Shown: piece after piece, positions 1,485 to 6,633 of the stretch | How positions within the stretch are numbered: position 1 is the first letter of the stretch | Layout: each line of letters opens with the position of its first letter | Assembly: GCA_000002445.1 (NCBI GenBank) | Contig: CP000070.1 | Coordinates: 1,664,001 to 1,728,000, forward strand | Source: Trypanosoma brucei | Lineage: Eukaryota | Direction of reading: 5' to 3' | Length of the DNA: 64,000 bases | The notes under the pieces: generated by a model | Told to the model about the DNA's origin: nothing | The model's input: the letters and a program-made list of their open reading frames with translations, nothing else | The model's database searches: none | Program-made: the position numbers and the translations under genes

Positions 1485-2129
1485 TTACACATGAATGCTC
1501 TTTCCCATTACACCTGTTACTCCTGGCACCTTAAGTAGCGTCCACATCAAATATGATGCGATTCCACAGAAGAAGTGCCATGTGCTGTGATACATCCTGA
1601 AGTGATCCCTCTTGTCATCAAGGCCCTTTATGAAGAAAATAACGGCAACGGCCATGATGAGGATAAACCCAACTAATCGCCCAATTTCGAGTGCCGGGAT
1701 CCGCCGGCGGTACACATACACCCCAATGGGTATTGAAAACGATACAGCAGCGGGAAATACCGAATTTACCGCCTCCCATGGGCCTCTAGTTTGAAATATA
1801 AGGCATAACATCATTAATGAATATTTTGTAAATCGTTCCACAAATGGATCATGGAGCGCACACATATATACACTCCACGCACCAAGGAGGGAAATGACAA
1901 GAATATTATCCACACGATGCCACGCAAGACTGCTCATGAAAAACTTAGCATCAAACGCTTCACAAATGTGATACATGAGGGATGCTGTTAGGCCGAAGAT
2001 ACCCAAGACAGATTCATATGCATAGCGTTTTCTCAGAAAATGATAGACAGTCGGCACCAACGTAGCATGGCTCACCACAGAGAGGATGCACACAAGCCAA
2101 GAGGCAAATGGCTCCAGTTCCACCTCCAT
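1485..2129 (-). CDS. Array copy 1: 214-aa multi-pass membrane protein, alkaline-ceramidase/CREST-like motifs (SxxxH, D, HxxWHxxxGxxSYL)
   Basis: ATG verified (cat at 2127-2129 on +). About six hydrophobic segments. Motifs TASLMYH, WHRVDN and HSTWHFFCGIASYL resemble the alkaline ceramidase TM3/TM7 zinc-site motifs (human ACER3 FHAWWHILTGLGSYL, recalled). The C-terminal 26 aa are identical in all four copies. Confidence 0.75.
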   Translation of the reverse strand: MEVELEPFASWLVCILSVVSHATLVPTVYHFLRKRYAYESVLGIFGLTASLMYHICEAFDAKFFMSSLAWHRVDNILVISLLGAWSVYMCALHDPFVERFTKYSLMMLCLIFQTRGPWEAVNSVFPAAVSFSIPIGVYVYRRRIPALEIGRLVGFILIMAVAVIFFIKGLDDKRDHFRMYHSTWHFFCGIASYLMWTLLKVPGVTGVMGKSIHV

Positions 2130-2989
2130 TGAGAAAACAACAAAGAGCTACTAACCGTGATGAACTGCTCGTCAGCTGTATGAAACAAATGATCGAGCGT
2201 CACAACAGTAGCAACAAGGAAATGAACCGAGTGACTCTCAGCAAAATGTAGTGTATCACAGGCAATATGCAGCCCGAATACAGTACGAAAACACGAATAG
2301 CGCAGCAAACAGCACCGCGTTCCGTGTAACTTCGGCCCACAGATCTACCTTTTAACAGCAATGAAACAAAAGAAAAGAACACATGGAAAACAGTGCAACA
2401 GGAAATGAGTGGGAAGAGGAATATTATGCTTTACACATAAAAAGGATGTAGTACCCATCATAAATAAACGGATAACATACACGGAGAGAGAAGCGACACA
2501 GTGGTACCCTGGGTCGCAAGGGAAAGAAACGCAAAAGGCAACCGCAACCAATATCAACACACCTCCAAAGTCAGGATTGGGAAACAGAAAACAAACGCAG
2601 AGTTTGCTAAACCGGATGCCGCATACAGCAACCTCCTCTCTCCTCACGGTATTAATCCACCAGCGTTTCACGCCGTTAACACAACAACGCATTAGGGTAC
2701 GAATTCCGTATATTCCATAGTGTTCTGAATAGAAGCCTCCAGATAGTATCAAACAAGGACAAAAGGGATCACTCGGAAGCAAAACCAAAGATAAGATATG
2801 AAAAGCGTCACAAGCGGTAATGTTGAGTGAATGGAACGGCACATTACGATATGGCTTAATGACAGCACAAAACAACATAATAATGCACGCTTGTGCGAGT
2901 AGACAAGCCAATTCTGCAACTCAAACATATACCTCTATCAGGTATCACAAGCAATATTTCCAAAGGGAAAATAAGGAAACCATTACTCA

Positions 2990-3649
2990 TTACACATGAA
3001 TGCTCTTTCCCATTACACCTGTTACTCCTGGCACCTTAAGTAGCGTCCACATCAAATATGATGCGATTCCACAGAAGAAGTGCCATGTGCTGTGATACAT
3101 CCTGAAGTGATCCCTCTTGTCATCAAGGCCCTTTATGAAGAAAATAACGGCAACGGCCATGATGAGGATAAACCCAACTAATCGCCCAATTTCGAGTGCC
3201 GGGATCCGCCGGCGGTACACATACACCCCAATGGGTATTGAAAACGATACAGCAGCGGGAAATACCGAATTTACCGCCTCCCATGGGCCTCTAGTTTGAA
3301 ATATAAGGCATAACATCATTAATGAATATTTTGTAAATCGTTCCACAAATGGATCATGGAGCGCACACATATATACACTCCACGCACCAAGGAGGGAAAT
3401 GACAAGAATATTATCCACACGATGCCACCCACCGTTGTCCATCAGTACCTCCACATCAAATGCTTCACAAATGTGATACATGAGGGATGCTGTAAGGCCG
3501 AAGATACCCATGGCTGCCTCATACACGTAGCGTTTTCTCAGAAAATGATAGACAGTCGGCACCAACGTGGCATGGCTCACCACAGAGAGGACGCATACAA
3601 AGCAAGAAGTAAACATTTTATTATCGTGACTAGCCGGCGAATTTGACAT
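2990..3649 (-). CDS. Array copy 2: 219-aa paralogue (alternative internal ATG at 3616 gives 208 aa); same motifs as copy 1
   Basis: ATG verified at 3647-3649. It is identical to copy 1 over most of its length, except the N-terminus and a ~35-aa internal patch (VYEAAMGIFG...DVEVLMDNGGWHRV) that it shares instead with copy 4. Confidence 0.75.
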   Translation of the reverse strand: MSNSPASHDNKMFTSCFVCVLSVVSHATLVPTVYHFLRKRYVYEAAMGIFGLTASLMYHICEAFDVEVLMDNGGWHRVDNILVISLLGAWSVYMCALHDPFVERFTKYSLMMLCLIFQTRGPWEAVNSVFPAAVSFSIPIGVYVYRRRIPALEIGRLVGFILIMAVAVIFFIKGLDDKRDHFRMYHSTWHFFCGIASYLMWTLLKVPGVTGVMGKSIHV

Positions 3650-4490: not shown

Positions 4491-5147
4491 TTACACATGA
4501 ATGCTCTTTCCCATTACACCTGTTACTCCTGGCACCTTAAGTAGCGTCCACATCAAATATGATGCGATGCCGAAGAGAGAGCGACATGCACTTAGGAAAA
4601 ACATGAAGGGATCCCTTTCGTCATCAAGGGAAATAAAAAGGAAAGACAAAGCAATCACCACGGCAAAAACCAACACGAGTAGGCGGCGCGTGAAAACGGC
4701 CGGGAGTTGCCGGCGATATGTGTAAACACAAATGGGAACAACAAAACTGACGTATGCCCCTTTGGTGAGCAACTTTACGGGTGTCCAAGGGCCAGTTGCA
4801 TGACAAATGATACATATGAGAAGGAAGCAGTACTTAGTGAAGCGCTCCACAAAGGAGTCTCTGAACGCACAAATGTACGTACTCCAAGCACCGATGAGGG
4901 TAATTAAACAAATGTTGCCCACCCTAAACCACGCAGCGTCGTCCATAAAAATTTCAACACCCAATAAGTTACAGAGGTGAAACATCAGGGAGGCTGTAAT
5001 GCCGAATATAGCAAAGACAGATTCGTAGACATAACGTTTTTTTAAGAAATACTGCAGAGTCGGCATATATGCAGCATAACTTGCTGTAGAGAAAAGAGAA
5101 GCAAAGCATGACGCGATACCATCTTCCTCCCAATGAACAGAGTACAT
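4491..5147 (-). CDS. Array copy 3: divergent 218-aa paralogue lacking the HxxWH and N-terminal His motifs; possible pseudo-enzyme or decaying copy
   Basis: ATG verified at 5145-5147. It is about 50% identical to copies 1, 2 and 4 over residues 1-190, then identical over the last 26 aa (GIASYLMWTLLKVPGVTGVMGKSIHV) and the whole 3' flank. The segment FFLSACRSLFGIASYL replaces YHSTWHFFCGIASYL. The ORF is intact, so I call it a CDS rather than a pseudogene. Confidence 0.6.
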   Translation of the reverse strand: MYSVHWEEDGIASCFASLFSTASYAAYMPTLQYFLKKRYVYESVFAIFGITASLMFHLCNLLGVEIFMDDAAWFRVGNICLITLIGAWSTYICAFRDSFVERFTKYCFLLICIICHATGPWTPVKLLTKGAYVSFVVPICVYTYRRQLPAVFTRRLLVLVFAVVIALSFLFISLDDERDPFMFFLSACRSLFGIASYLMWTLLKVPGVTGVMGKSIHV

Positions 5148-5988
5148 TCTCCCTGGACAGTGACTGCACGTCAGCTGTATGAAACAAATGATCGAGCGTC
5201 ACAACAGTAGCAACAAGGAAATGAACCGAGTGACTCTCAGCAAAATGTAGTGTATCACAGGCAATATGCAGCCCGAATACAGTACGAAAACACGAATAGC
5301 GCAGCAAACAGCACCGCGTTCCGTGCAACTTCGGCCCACAGATCTACCTTTTAACAGCAATGAAACAAAAGAAAAGAACACATGGAAAACAGTGCAACAG
5401 GAAATGAGTGGGAAGAGGAATATTATGCTTTACACATAAAAAGGATGTAGTACCCATCATAAATAAACGGATAACATACACGGAGAGAGAAGCGACACAG
5501 TGGTACCCTGGGTCGCAAGGGAAAGAAACGCAAAAGGCAACCGCAACCAATATCAACACACCTCCAAAGTCAGGGTTGGGAAACAGAAAACAAAGGCAGA
5601 GTTTGCTAAACCGGATGCCGCATACAGCAACCTCCTCTCTCCTCACGGTATTAATCCACCAGCGTTTCACGCCGTTAACACAACAACGCATTAGGGTACG
5701 AATTCCGTATATTCCATAGTGTTCTGAATAGAAGCCTCCAGATAGTATCAAACAAGGACAAAAGGGATCACTCGGAAGCAAAACCAAAGATAAGATATGA
5801 AAAGCGTTACAAGCGGTAATGTTGAGTGAATGGAACGGGACATTACGATATGGCTTAATGACAGCACAAAACAACATAATAATGCACGCTTGTGCGAGTA
5901 GACAAGCCAATTCTGCAACTCAAACATATACCTCTATCAGGTATCACAAGCAATATTTCCAAAGGGAAAATAAGGAAACCATTACTCA

Positions 5989-6633
5989 TTACACATGAAT
6001 GCTCTTTCCCATTACACCTGTTACTCCTGGCACCTTAAGTAGCGTCCACATCAAATATGATGCGATTCCACAGAAGAAGTGCCACAGGCTGTGATACATC
6101 TTGTAGGGATCATTCTCATCATCAAGGCCCTTTATGAAGAAAATAACGGCAACTGCCATTACGAGGGCGAAACCGAAAAGACGATTCGGGAAAACGCTTG
6201 GAAGACGCCAGCGATATGCGTAAACACAAATGGGAAAGCCAATGCAAATAAATACTGGGACAATAGTGTTTACGGCTTTCCACGCCCCCCTCGCTTGAAA
6301 TAAGACACACATCATCAAAAGGCAGTACTTCGAGCAGCGCTCTGTAAAGAGGTCACGGAAGGCACACATGTACACACTCCATGCACCAAGGAATGAGACA
6401 ACAAGAATATTATCCACACGATGCCACCCGGCTTCATCAAGGATTATCTCCGCGTTAAGTACCTGACAAATGTGATACATGAGGGAGGCTGTCATCCCAA
6501 AAATACCCATGGCCGCCTCATACACGTAGCGTTGTTTGAAGAAATGATGCACCGTTGGTAAAAAGGTAACATGGCTTATAACAGAGAAAAGGCACACAAG
6601 CCAAGAGGCAAATGGCTCCAGTTCCACCTCCAT
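5989..6633 (-). CDS. Array copy 4: 214-aa paralogue; N-terminus like copy 1, internal patch like copy 2, many private substitutions
   Basis: ATG verified at 6631-6633. MEVELEPFASWLVC is shared with copy 1. SxxxH (TASLMYH), D (WHRVDN) and HSLWHFFCGIASYL are retained. Confidence 0.75.
   Translation of the reverse strand: MEVELEPFASWLVCLFSVISHVTFLPTVHHFFKQRYVYEAAMGIFGMTASLMYHICQVLNAEIILDEAGWHRVDNILVVSFLGAWSVYMCAFRDLFTERCSKYCLLMMCVLFQARGAWKAVNTIVPVFICIGFPICVYAYRWRLPSVFPNRLFGFALVMAVAVIFFIKGLDDENDPYKMYHSLWHFFCGIASYLMWTLLKVPGVTGVMGKSIHV

What the first reader, a model, noticed from the sequence alone, without database searches (positions are those of the whole stretch)
1485..6633. Array proteins carry alkaline-ceramidase/CREST-type zinc-site motifs in a shortened ~215-aa scaffold
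Copies 1, 2 and 4 contain SxxxH (TASLMYH), a conserved Asp (WHRVDN) and a C-terminal HxxWHxxxGxxSYL (HSTWHFFCGIASYLMW). The last motif matches closely what I recall of human ACER3 TM7 (FHAWWHILTGLGSYLHI), the His pair of the alkaline ceramidase/PAQR/Per1 (CREST) intramembrane hydrolases. The proteins are shorter than ACERs (~215 vs ~270 aa) and lack the N-terminal Ca-site helix. They may be a minimal lipid hydrolase or a receptor-like CREST member, multiplied in a tandem array.
Basis: partly seen in the sequence, partly recalled or inferred. Interest (0 to 1): 0.6.

Follow-up and report, generated by a model that had tools for sequence, protein, structure and literature searches.

The report
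Known trypanosome GPI phospholipase A2 array

Summary
Four minus-strand ORFs of 214–219 aa sit at exactly the stated coordinates. Copies 1, 2 and 4 carry SxxxH (TM2), Asp (TM3) and HxxxH (TM7). Copy 3 has lost the Asp and both TM7 His.

It is already known. The proteins match T. b. brucei TREU927 chromosome 7 annotations residue for residue. Ji et al. 2023 (JBC) showed Tb927.7.6110 is the GPI-PLA2 of GPI fatty-acid remodelling. They found 6150 presumably inactive, and 6170 intact but lacking that activity. Pei et al. 2011 had already placed Trypanosoma proteins in CREST. Jackson et al. 2010 recorded four copies in T. b. brucei against three in T. b. gambiense, with recombinant mosaics. Low interest, no novelty.

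The parts
1485..2129 (-). Copy 1, 214 aa, last gene of the array in transcription order. Identical to T. b. brucei TREU927 XP_846234/AAZ12675. Mapped by inference to Tb927.7.6110, the experimentally shown GPI-PLA2. All five CREST residues are present (S50, H54, D74, H181, H185).
   Evidence: (DUF3522 E 2.4e-52). Gene order and function from PMC10457582. AF2 model with pLDDT 80.7 and 7 TM helices.
2990..3649 (-). Copy 2, 219 aa, identical to TREU927 XP_846236/AAZ12677 (locus tag Tb927.7.6130 inferred, not verified). It is a mosaic: the 3' ~420 nt are 100% identical to copy 1 and the 5' ~230 nt diverge. All five CREST residues are present. It is absent from T. b. gambiense DAL972 and T. b. equiperdum, and Ji et al. 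2023 do not name it.
   Evidence: (E 9.3e-53). Jackson 2010 Table 2 gives 4 copies in Tbb and 3 in Tbg, with 1 Tbb-unique isoform. No paper in the library names Tb927.7.6130.
4491..5147 (-). Copy 3, 218 aa, identical to TREU927 XP_846238/AAZ12679, equal to Tb927.7.6150, the presumed catalytically dead paralog. It keeps S and the TM2 His but carries D74G, H181L and H185R, and it also departs at 7 further family-conserved positions. The ORF is intact and still constrained.
   Evidence: E 3.9e-38, the weakest of the four; pentad reads SHGLR; also Y53F, H71F, Q113H, P126K, G169S, R178M, W184C; dN/dS 0.22-0.33 against the other copies. PMC10457582 reports only 2 of 5 residues and no effect of the add-back.
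5989..6633 (-). Copy 4, 214 aa, first gene of the array in transcription order. Identical to AAZ12681 and to the DAL972 and equiperdum proteins. Equal to Tb927.7.6170, which has all five CREST residues but did not restore GPI-precursor PLA2 activity in the published add-back.
   Evidence: (E 1.1e-52). PMC10457582.
2130..2989 (-). Homogenised spacer between copies 2 and 1. Together with the spacers at 3650-4490 and 5148-5988 it is 97-100% identical between units. It contains the interleaved 188-aa ORF (Tb927.7.6120-type, annotated as its own array).
   Evidence: sliding identity. Jackson 2010 array 62aii. No Pfam hit for the ORF. Ji et al. mention 'homologous intergenic regions'.
1290..1563 (-). 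Homogenised 3' block: the last ~80 nt of each CDS (encoding the identical C-terminal ~26 residues, GIASYLMWTLLKVPGVTGVMGKSIHV) plus ~195 nt downstream. It is 95-100% identical in all four units. The equivalent blocks start at 2795, 4296 and 5794.
   Evidence: the C-terminal residues are invariant; family D1.

Best explanation
The array is the Trypanosoma brucei brucei TREU927 chromosome-7 locus Tb927.7.6110/(6130)/6150/6170. Each gene encodes a single-domain seven-transmembrane protein of the TMEM8/DUF3522 branch of the CREST superfamily.

By homology with solved CREST members, the TM2 His (H54) and the two TM7 His (H181, H185) hold a Zn2+ ion near one membrane face. S50 and D74 position the water that attacks an acyl ester of a lipid entering laterally from the bilayer.

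Shown by published experiment: Tb927.7.6110 (copy 1 here) is necessary and sufficient for the GPI-specific phospholipase A2 step that removes the sn-2 fatty acid of GPI precursors during fatty-acid remodelling.

Inferred:
- Copy 2 has a catalytic half identical to copy 1 and probably has the same activity.
- Copy 4 (6170) is an intact hydrolase with a different GPI-related specificity. GPI-PLA1 or a proof-reading PLA2 was proposed by Ji et al.
- Copy 3 (6150) is a conserved pseudoenzyme.
- The charge distribution suggests an N-terminus-out (lumenal) topology, with the site in the lumenal leaflet as in Myomaker/PGAP6. This is the opposite of ACER3 and AdipoR.
For: Exact-sequence identity of all four proteins to TREU927 annotations. 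Neighbouring genes fit one polycistronic unit, with all 16 ORFs of at least 250 aa on the minus strand.

Pfam DUF3522 at E 1e-38 to 1e-53 against a 29.3-bit cutoff. Pei et al. 2011 state that DUF3522 is the TMEM8 family, and that a Trypanosoma-containing 'hypothetical group 3' forms a clade with TMEM8.

The 60-sequence family profile hits Myomaker chains 8T06/8T07/8T03 at E 3.8e-7 to 7.1e-7 over the full length. H54 and the HxxxH motif align to Myomaker's His residues.

The pentad is conserved in 57 of 60 relatives. All five residues lie 2-8 residues from the helix ends on the same face as the N-terminus. Net loop charge is -3 on that face and +6 on the other.

Function: null mutant and add-back data of Ji et al. 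2023 (PMC10457582). Copy number and mosaicism: Jackson et al. 2010 Table 2.
Against: The locus-tag mapping (copy 1 = 6110, copy 2 = 6130) is inferred, not read from an annotation file. It rests on gene order, accession spacing, the pattern of residue loss and the literature tables.

The tools return no model coordinates, so convergence of the three His and the Asp on one point was not measured. It rests on homology to Zn-containing structures and on helix-end positions.

No metal has been demonstrated for the trypanosome proteins. The biochemical activity was shown genetically in cells, not with purified protein. The topology call rests on a weak charge bias (K+R 6 against 8). The published work was done in Lister 427, whose copy number at this locus I could not check.
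Confidence: 0.95

Rival explanations
1. The proteins are shortened alkaline ceramidases (ACER family) that hydrolyse ceramide or inositol-phosphoceramide.
Against: The window proteins give no Ceramidase hit at E<=10. The PDB profile search does not find ACER3 at E<=1 but finds Myomaker at 4e-7. Myomaker scores far higher in both fold searches. The ACER3 N-terminal Ca2+ site is absent. The published null mutant has a GPI-PLA2 phenotype.
Confidence: 0.02
2. They are PAQR/haemolysin-III-like receptors or pore formers, as the UniRef name 'Haemolysin-III related' suggests.
Against: The window proteins give no HlyIII hit at E<=10. AdipoR scores no better than the other non-TMEM8 CREST folds. The charge-based topology is opposite to that of PAQRs. 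An enzymatic role has been shown for 6110.
Confidence: 0.02
3. Not all copies are enzymes. Copy 3 (6150), and possibly copy 4 (6170), may act non-catalytically. They could be lipid-binding or scaffolding partners that modulate the PLA2 or couple GPI-anchored proteins to downstream glycosyltransferases, in the way Myomaker works without a demonstrated hydrolase activity and as a dimer.
For: Copy 3 has lost 3 of 5 pentad residues and 7 further family-conserved residues, yet it keeps an intact ORF with dN/dS 0.22-0.33 and is near-identical across subspecies. The 6170 add-back changes procyclin glycan size without restoring PLA2 activity, and the authors themselves propose coupling to processing enzymes. 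Myomaker lacks Ser and Asp, binds Zn and lipid, and works as a homodimer (PMC13562381).
Against: The 6150 add-back had no visible phenotype. Copy 4 retains the whole pentad and all family-conserved residues, which argues for catalysis. dS between paralogs is saturated, so the dN/dS values are rough.
Confidence: 0.3

Closest known systems
Tb927.7.6110 / 6150 / 6170 of Trypanosoma brucei (TbGPI-PLA2 locus; Ji, Nagar, Duncan, Guther & Ferguson, J Biol Chem 2023, PMC10457582)
   Same: This is the same locus. The protein sequences match TREU927 exactly. [quoted passage not shown] Two of the published paralogs have all five CREST residues and one has only two of five, and all have seven closely spaced TM segments.
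   Different: The paper describes three genes. This TREU927 window has a fourth (copy 2, XP_846236) that the paper does not mention. Jackson et al. 2010 had already recorded it as a T. b. brucei-specific isoform.
TMEM8 family / Pfam DUF3522 (PF12036): PGAP6 (TMEM8A, a GPI-specific PLA2), TMEM8B, and Myomaker (TMEM8C; PDB 8T03-8T07)
   Same: Pfam membership at E about 1e-52. Myomaker is the closest solved structure by sequence profile and by fold. The proteins are a single-domain ~215-220 aa 7TM core like Myomaker. They have GPI-PLA2 chemistry and a complete pentad like PGAP6.
   Different: There is no N-terminal signal peptide, EGF domain or large ectodomain as in PGAP6 and TMEM8B. Unlike Myomaker, copies 1, 2 and 4 keep the Ser and Asp. 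Identity is only 11-16% to PGAP6 (Ji et al.) and 13-14% to Myomaker. Pei et al. 2011 placed the protist proteins in a separate 'hypothetical group 3', sister to TMEM8.
Alkaline ceramidase ACER3 (PDB 6G7O/6YXH; Pfam PF05875)
   Different: No significant sequence-family hit. The N-terminal Ca2+ site is absent. The substrate differs (amide bond of ceramide against sn-2 ester of GPI). The active site probably faces the opposite way.
PGAP3 / yeast Per1 (Pfam PF04080), the other CREST GPI-PLA2 of fatty-acid remodelling
   Same: The same superfamily and the same kind of reaction, removal of the sn-2 acyl chain of GPI during lipid remodelling.
   Different: No Per1 Pfam hit at E<=10. PGAP3/Per1 act after transfer of GPI to protein, whereas TbGPI-PLA2 acts on GPI precursors before transfer (PMC10457582).

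Membership tests
CREST superfamily (Pei et al. 2011) | Core of seven transmembrane helices | tested here: met
   The AF2 model (pLDDT 80.7) has helices 7-33, 37-58, 67-89, 95-114, 120-141, 149-169 and 179-196. The hydropathy profile agrees with this.
CREST superfamily (Pei et al. 2011) | Five conserved residues: S-x3-H in TM2, D in TM3, H-x3-H in TM7 | tested here: met
   S50, H54, D74, H181 and H185 are present in copies 1, 2 and 4, in the expected helices, and are conserved in 57 of 60 relatives. Copy 3 does not meet this feature: its pentad reads S, H, G, L, R.
CREST superfamily (Pei et al. 2011) | Fold closest to solved CREST members rather than to other 7TM proteins | tested here: met
CREST superfamily (Pei et al. 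2011) | The three His and the Asp converge on one Zn2+ site | tested here: inconclusive
   All five residues lie 2-8 residues from helix ends on the same membrane face, and the His residues align with Myomaker's. The tools return no model coordinates, so no distances could be measured. Metal binding itself cannot be tested here.
TMEM8 family / Pfam DUF3522 (PF12036) | Score above the Pfam gathering cutoff over the whole domain | tested here: met
   131.9-179.6 bits against a 29.3-bit cutoff, covering profile positions 2-188 of 188. 60 of 60 relatives also match.
TMEM8 family / Pfam DUF3522 (PF12036) | Closest solved relative is a TMEM8 protein | tested here: met
GPI-specific phospholipase A2 (function of Tb927.7.6110) | Removal of the sn-2 acyl chain of GPI, shown by loss and restoration of activity | not testable with these tools
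   Taken from Ji et al. 2023. It applies to copy 1. It is untested for copy 2, negative for 6170 (copy 4) and without effect for 6150 (copy 3).
Alkaline ceramidase (Pfam PF05875) | Significant match to the Ceramidase profile | tested here: not met
   None of the four window proteins has a hit at E<=10. Among 60 relatives the best E is 0.017, below the curated threshold. ACER3 is not found by the profile-PDB search at E<=1.
Alkaline ceramidase (Pfam PF05875) | N-terminal Ca2+-binding segment (ACER3 D19-W-C-E-x-N24 and A32-E-F34) | tested here: not met
   Only about 6 residues precede TM1, and the motif is absent from the translations. The motif definition is from PMC6303388.
PAQR / Haemolysin-III (Pfam PF03006) | Significant match to the HlyIII profile | tested here: not met
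   No hit at E<=10 for the window proteins. 5 of 60 relatives give sub-threshold hits, best E 0.0013. The UniRef name 'Haemolysin-III related' is therefore only a superfamily-level label.
Per1 / PGAP3 (Pfam PF04080) | Significant match to the Per1 profile | tested here: not met
   No hit at E<=10, and Per1 is not among the 25 families most often hit by relatives.

The most novel reading that the evidence does not exclude
The paralogs may not be redundant dosage copies. They could be a functional set kept distinct by selection. Coding bodies are saturated at synonymous sites (dS 1.2-2.3), while the spacers and the last 80 nt of each CDS are kept about 100% identical by gene conversion. One reading is that 6170 is the still-unidentified GPI-PLA1 or proof-reading lipase of bloodstream forms, and that the conserved dead copy 6150 is a regulatory partner in a Myomaker-like dimer with the active enzymes. 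The untested, T. b. brucei-specific mosaic copy 2 might add a variant with a different N-terminal half. None of this is excluded by my evidence, and none of it is shown.
Probability: 0.2. Interest if true: 0.45.

Novelty: already known. Interest (0 to 1): 0.1.

Why it matters
GPI fatty-acid remodelling, which ends in myristoylation of the VSG anchor, is a classic trypanosome-specific pathway and was once considered a drug target. Its PLA2 was unidentified for about 30 years until this locus was characterised in 2023. That result already stands. This scan only re-derives, from raw sequence, the family assignment, the dead paralog and the copy-number difference, and adds a structure-based confirmation that the proteins belong with Myomaker/TMEM8. 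Some questions at the locus remain open: the function of 6170, the role of the pseudoenzyme 6150, and the activity of the fourth TREU927 copy. They need experiments, not further sequence analysis.

Tried and rejected
1. A single-sequence phmmer search of copy 1 against the PDB found only chance proteasome matches at E 1.1. A family profile was needed to reach Myomaker.

2. The word-indexed homolog search found only the four T. brucei and T. congolense clusters, both with one sequence and with a 7-sequence profile. The exhaustive HMMER search was needed to see the wider family: 333 representatives at E<=1e-3.

3. The first AF2 run on the shallow 7-sequence alignment gave pLDDT 53 and was discarded. 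A 13-sequence alignment with 21-31% identical relatives gave pLDDT 80.7.

4. The exact-product look-up for copy 2 returned nothing. I used copy 4 instead to fetch the DAL972 and equiperdum loci.

5. Rfam on the whole window gave no hits, so the perfectly conserved spacers are not a known RNA gene cluster.

6. The interleaved 188-aa spacer ORF has no Pfam match. I treated it as probably non-coding.

7. I looked for model coordinates in the sandbox to measure His-His distances and found none.

8. I considered and rejected ACER, PAQR and Per1 membership (see the membership tests).

9. I considered whether copy 3 is a decaying pseudogene. I rejected this because the ORF is intact, dN/dS is 0.22-0.33, and it is nearly identical across three subspecies.
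Full report
WHAT IS THERE. The region 1485-6633 holds four minus-strand ORFs: 1485-2129 (214 aa), 2990-3649 (219 aa), 4491-5147 (218 aa) and 5989-6633 (214 aa). They repeat with a period of 1498-1505 bp. In copy-1 numbering, copies 1, 2 and 4 carry S50-x3-H54 (TASLMYH), D74 (WHRVDN) and H181-x3-H185 (HSTWH or HSLWH, followed by FFCGIASYLMW). Copy 3 keeps the Ser and the first His but has D74G, H181L and H185R. The ACER3 string quoted from memory is also correct: it is exactly ACER3 residues 216-232 in PDB 6G7O. 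That string contains H217 and H221, two of the three Zn ligands of ACER3 (PMC6303388).

FAMILY. All four proteins match Pfam PF12036 (DUF3522) over the whole 188-position profile, at E 3.9e-38 to 9.3e-53 against a cutoff of 29.3 bits. None matches Ceramidase, HlyIII or Per1 even at E<=10. Pei et al. 2011, the paper that defined CREST, state that DUF3522 is the transmembrane domain of the TMEM8 family. They also describe a 'hypothetical group 3' of protist proteins, including Trypanosoma, that forms a well-supported clade with TMEM8.

An exhaustive HMMER search found 333 cluster representatives at E<=1e-3 and 160 at E<=1e-10. [quoted passage not shown] The named ones among the ten I looked up are from Albugo (oomycetes) and Colponema. 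Outside T. brucei and T. congolense the best hit is only 37% identical.

In a 60-sequence alignment, H54, W70 and D175 are invariant. S50, Y53, H71, D74, N75, Q113, P117, W118, P126, F166, G169, L170, R178, H181, W184 and H185 are at least 90% conserved. Scanning those 60 members against Pfam gives DUF3522 in 60 of 60. The next most frequent hits are sub-threshold: Ceramidase in 13 of 60 (best E 0.017) and HlyIII in 5 of 60 (best E 0.0013). That is the pattern expected for a distant superfamily relationship, not for family membership.

STRUCTURE. A profile of the 60 sequences finds Myomaker (TMEM8C; 8T06, 8T07, 8T03) in the PDB at E 3.8e-7 to 7.1e-7 over the full length. The TM2 His and the TM7 HxxxH align to Myomaker's His residues. 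ACER3 and AdipoR are not found at E<=1.

The five residues lie in TM2, TM3 and TM7 as the CREST definition requires. All sit 2-8 residues from the helix ends on the face that also carries the N-terminus. That face has net loop charge -3 and the other has +6. This weakly suggests an N-out, lumenal-leaflet site as in Myomaker and PGAP6 (PMC13562381), and not the cytoplasm-facing site of ACER3 and AdipoR. I could not measure the distances between the His residues, because the tools return no coordinates.

IDENTITY AND FUNCTION. An exact-sequence look-up shows that all four proteins are annotated T. b. brucei TREU927 proteins on the 2.2-Mb chromosome 7: XP_846234/AAZ12675, XP_846236/AAZ12677, XP_846238/AAZ12679 and AAZ12681. 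They are labelled 'hypothetical protein, conserved', and UniRef calls three of them 'Haemolysin-III related'.

Ji et al. 2023 (PMC10457582) searched T. brucei with PGAP6 and found Tb927.7.6110, 6150 and 6170 in tandem array. They report 11-16% identity to PGAP6, seven TM segments, and 50-66% identity among the three proteins. 6110 and 6170 have all five CREST residues, and 6150 has only two. Deleting the locus in procyclic forms left sn-1,2-diacyl-PI instead of sn-1-acyl-2-lyso-PI on procyclin anchors. Only the 6110 add-back restored the wild type. The 6150 add-back had no effect. The 6170 add-back did not restore PLA2 activity but did change GPI side-chain size.

Several facts map copy 4 to 6170, copy 3 to 6150 and copy 1 to 6110. 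The knockout constructs place the 6170 5' UTR upstream and the 6110 3' UTR downstream, which fixes the gene order. The residue-loss pattern and the identity values (67% and 51%) agree. The mapping of copy 2 to Tb927.7.6130 is inferred from the alternating accession numbers and from Jackson 2010, and I did not verify it.

THE FOURTH COPY AND THE ARRAY ARCHITECTURE. T. b. gambiense DAL972 and T. b. equiperdum have three DUF3522 genes at the syntenic locus, and TREU927 has one extra ~1.5-kb unit. The 3' ~420 nt of copy 2 are 100% identical to copy 1, while its 5' ~230 nt are only 28-92% identical in 60-nt windows. Its N-terminus (MSNSPASHDNKMFTSCF) resembles the T. congolense protein (MAGHNKADDTRMYTSWI). 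Copy 1 instead shares its N-terminus with copy 4.

Spacers are 97-100% identical between units, and so are the last ~80 nt of each CDS plus ~195 nt downstream. The coding bodies are only 47-87% identical, with dS of 1.2-2.3 between paralogs. Copy 3 against the others gives dN/dS of 0.22-0.33, compared with 0.12 for copy 1 against copy 4. Copy 3 differs from its DAL972 and equiperdum orthologues by 3 synonymous changes and 1 non-synonymous change. It is therefore a constrained pseudoenzyme and not a decaying pseudogene.

None of this is new either. Jackson 2007 lists array 62a (Tb927.7.6110) among the variable T. brucei arrays. Jackson et al. 2010, Table 2, record 4 copies in T. b. brucei against 3 in T. 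b. gambiense, three shared isoforms, one T. b. brucei-unique isoform, and significant recombination (PHI p<0.001, 6 GARD breakpoints). They also record the interleaved ORF array 62aii, Tb927.7.6120. Ji et al. note the homologous intergenic regions. What the literature held here does not contain is any functional statement on the fourth copy.

CONTEXT. All 16 ORFs of at least 250 aa in the window are on the minus strand. This is one polycistronic unit of unrelated housekeeping genes: a DnaJ protein, protein kinases including a Polo-box kinase, Arf, a kinesin, WD40, RCC1/BTB, an M20 peptidase, FAP206 and a 2Fe-2S thioredoxin-like protein. As expected for a trypanosomatid, the neighbours say nothing about function. 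Rfam finds nothing in the window.

VERDICT. It needs one correction: the branch is TMEM8/PGAP6/Myomaker, not alkaline ceramidase, and ~215 aa is the normal size for that branch. The locus, its superfamily assignment, its catalytic residues, its dead paralog, its copy-number polymorphism and the biochemical function of one member are all published. Novelty: already known. Interest: low.

Noticed in passing
window 2345-2911, 3846-4412, 5344-5910 (minus strand): A 188-aa Cys-rich hydrophobic ORF (TTG start) sits in each of the three spacers, on the same strand as the DUF3522 genes. The copies are near-identical because the spacer is homogenised. It corresponds to the separately annotated array 62aii, 'Tb927.7.6120', of Jackson 2010 (3 copies in Tbb, 2 in Tbg). 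It has no Pfam match and is probably not a real gene.
   Followed up: partly
window 1290-7298 (four repeat units): The conservation pattern is inverted. Spacers and the last ~80 nt of each CDS are 97-100% identical, while the coding bodies are 47-87% identical with saturated synonymous divergence (dS 1.2-2.3). Gene-conversion tracts appear to stop close to the start codon and about 80-90 nt before the stop. This implies selection against homogenising the coding bodies.
   Followed up: partly
window 2990-3649 versus 1485-2129 and 5989-6633: The N-terminus of copy 2 resembles the T. congolense orthologue, whereas the first ~60 nt of the copy 1 CDS and its proximal upstream sequence are 97-100% identical to copy 4. 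The reference '6110' N-terminus may itself be a conversion product from 6170, with the TREU927-only copy 2 keeping an older 5' end.
   Followed up: partly
L001:11043-11648 (T. b. equiperdum): The equiperdum orthologue of copy 1 is annotated as 201 aa, starting MRLSVVSH, so it lacks most of TM1. I did not examine whether this is a real 5' difference, a frameshift or an annotation choice.
   Followed up: no
copy 1 residues W70, H71, N75, Q113, P117, W118, P126, D175, R178, W184 (window 1485-2129): Beyond the CREST pentad, the protist DUF3522 family has its own set of residues conserved at 90% or more. This includes a fourth His (H71, in WHRxDN) and an invariant Asp (D175, in the LDDxxDxxR loop before TM7), both on the same face as the active site. 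Copy 3 has lost H71, Q113, P126, R178 and W184. In TM1, position 21 is His in the trypanosome proteins (except copy 3) and in about a dozen other relatives (18 of 60 in all), and Asn in most of the rest. Their roles are unknown.
   Followed up: partly
window 1-64000: All 16 ORFs of at least 250 aa are on the minus strand, so the window is one polycistronic transcription unit. It includes a Polo-box kinase (48534-50840), a kinesin (39148-41832), an Arf GTPase (25691-26446), an RCC1/BTB protein (54063-55982) and FAP206 (35638-37560). Several long spacers have only 31-32% GC (about 10-12 kb, 18-20 kb, 42-44 kb, 52-54 kb and 56-58 kb) and contain low-complexity runs.
   Followed up: no
window 8102-9247 (minus strand), just upstream of the array: A 381-aa ORF with no Pfam match lies next to the array. 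The syntenic DAL972 and equiperdum loci call a 278-aa gene there, so the long TTG-start ORF probably overextends the real gene at its 5' end.
   Followed up: no
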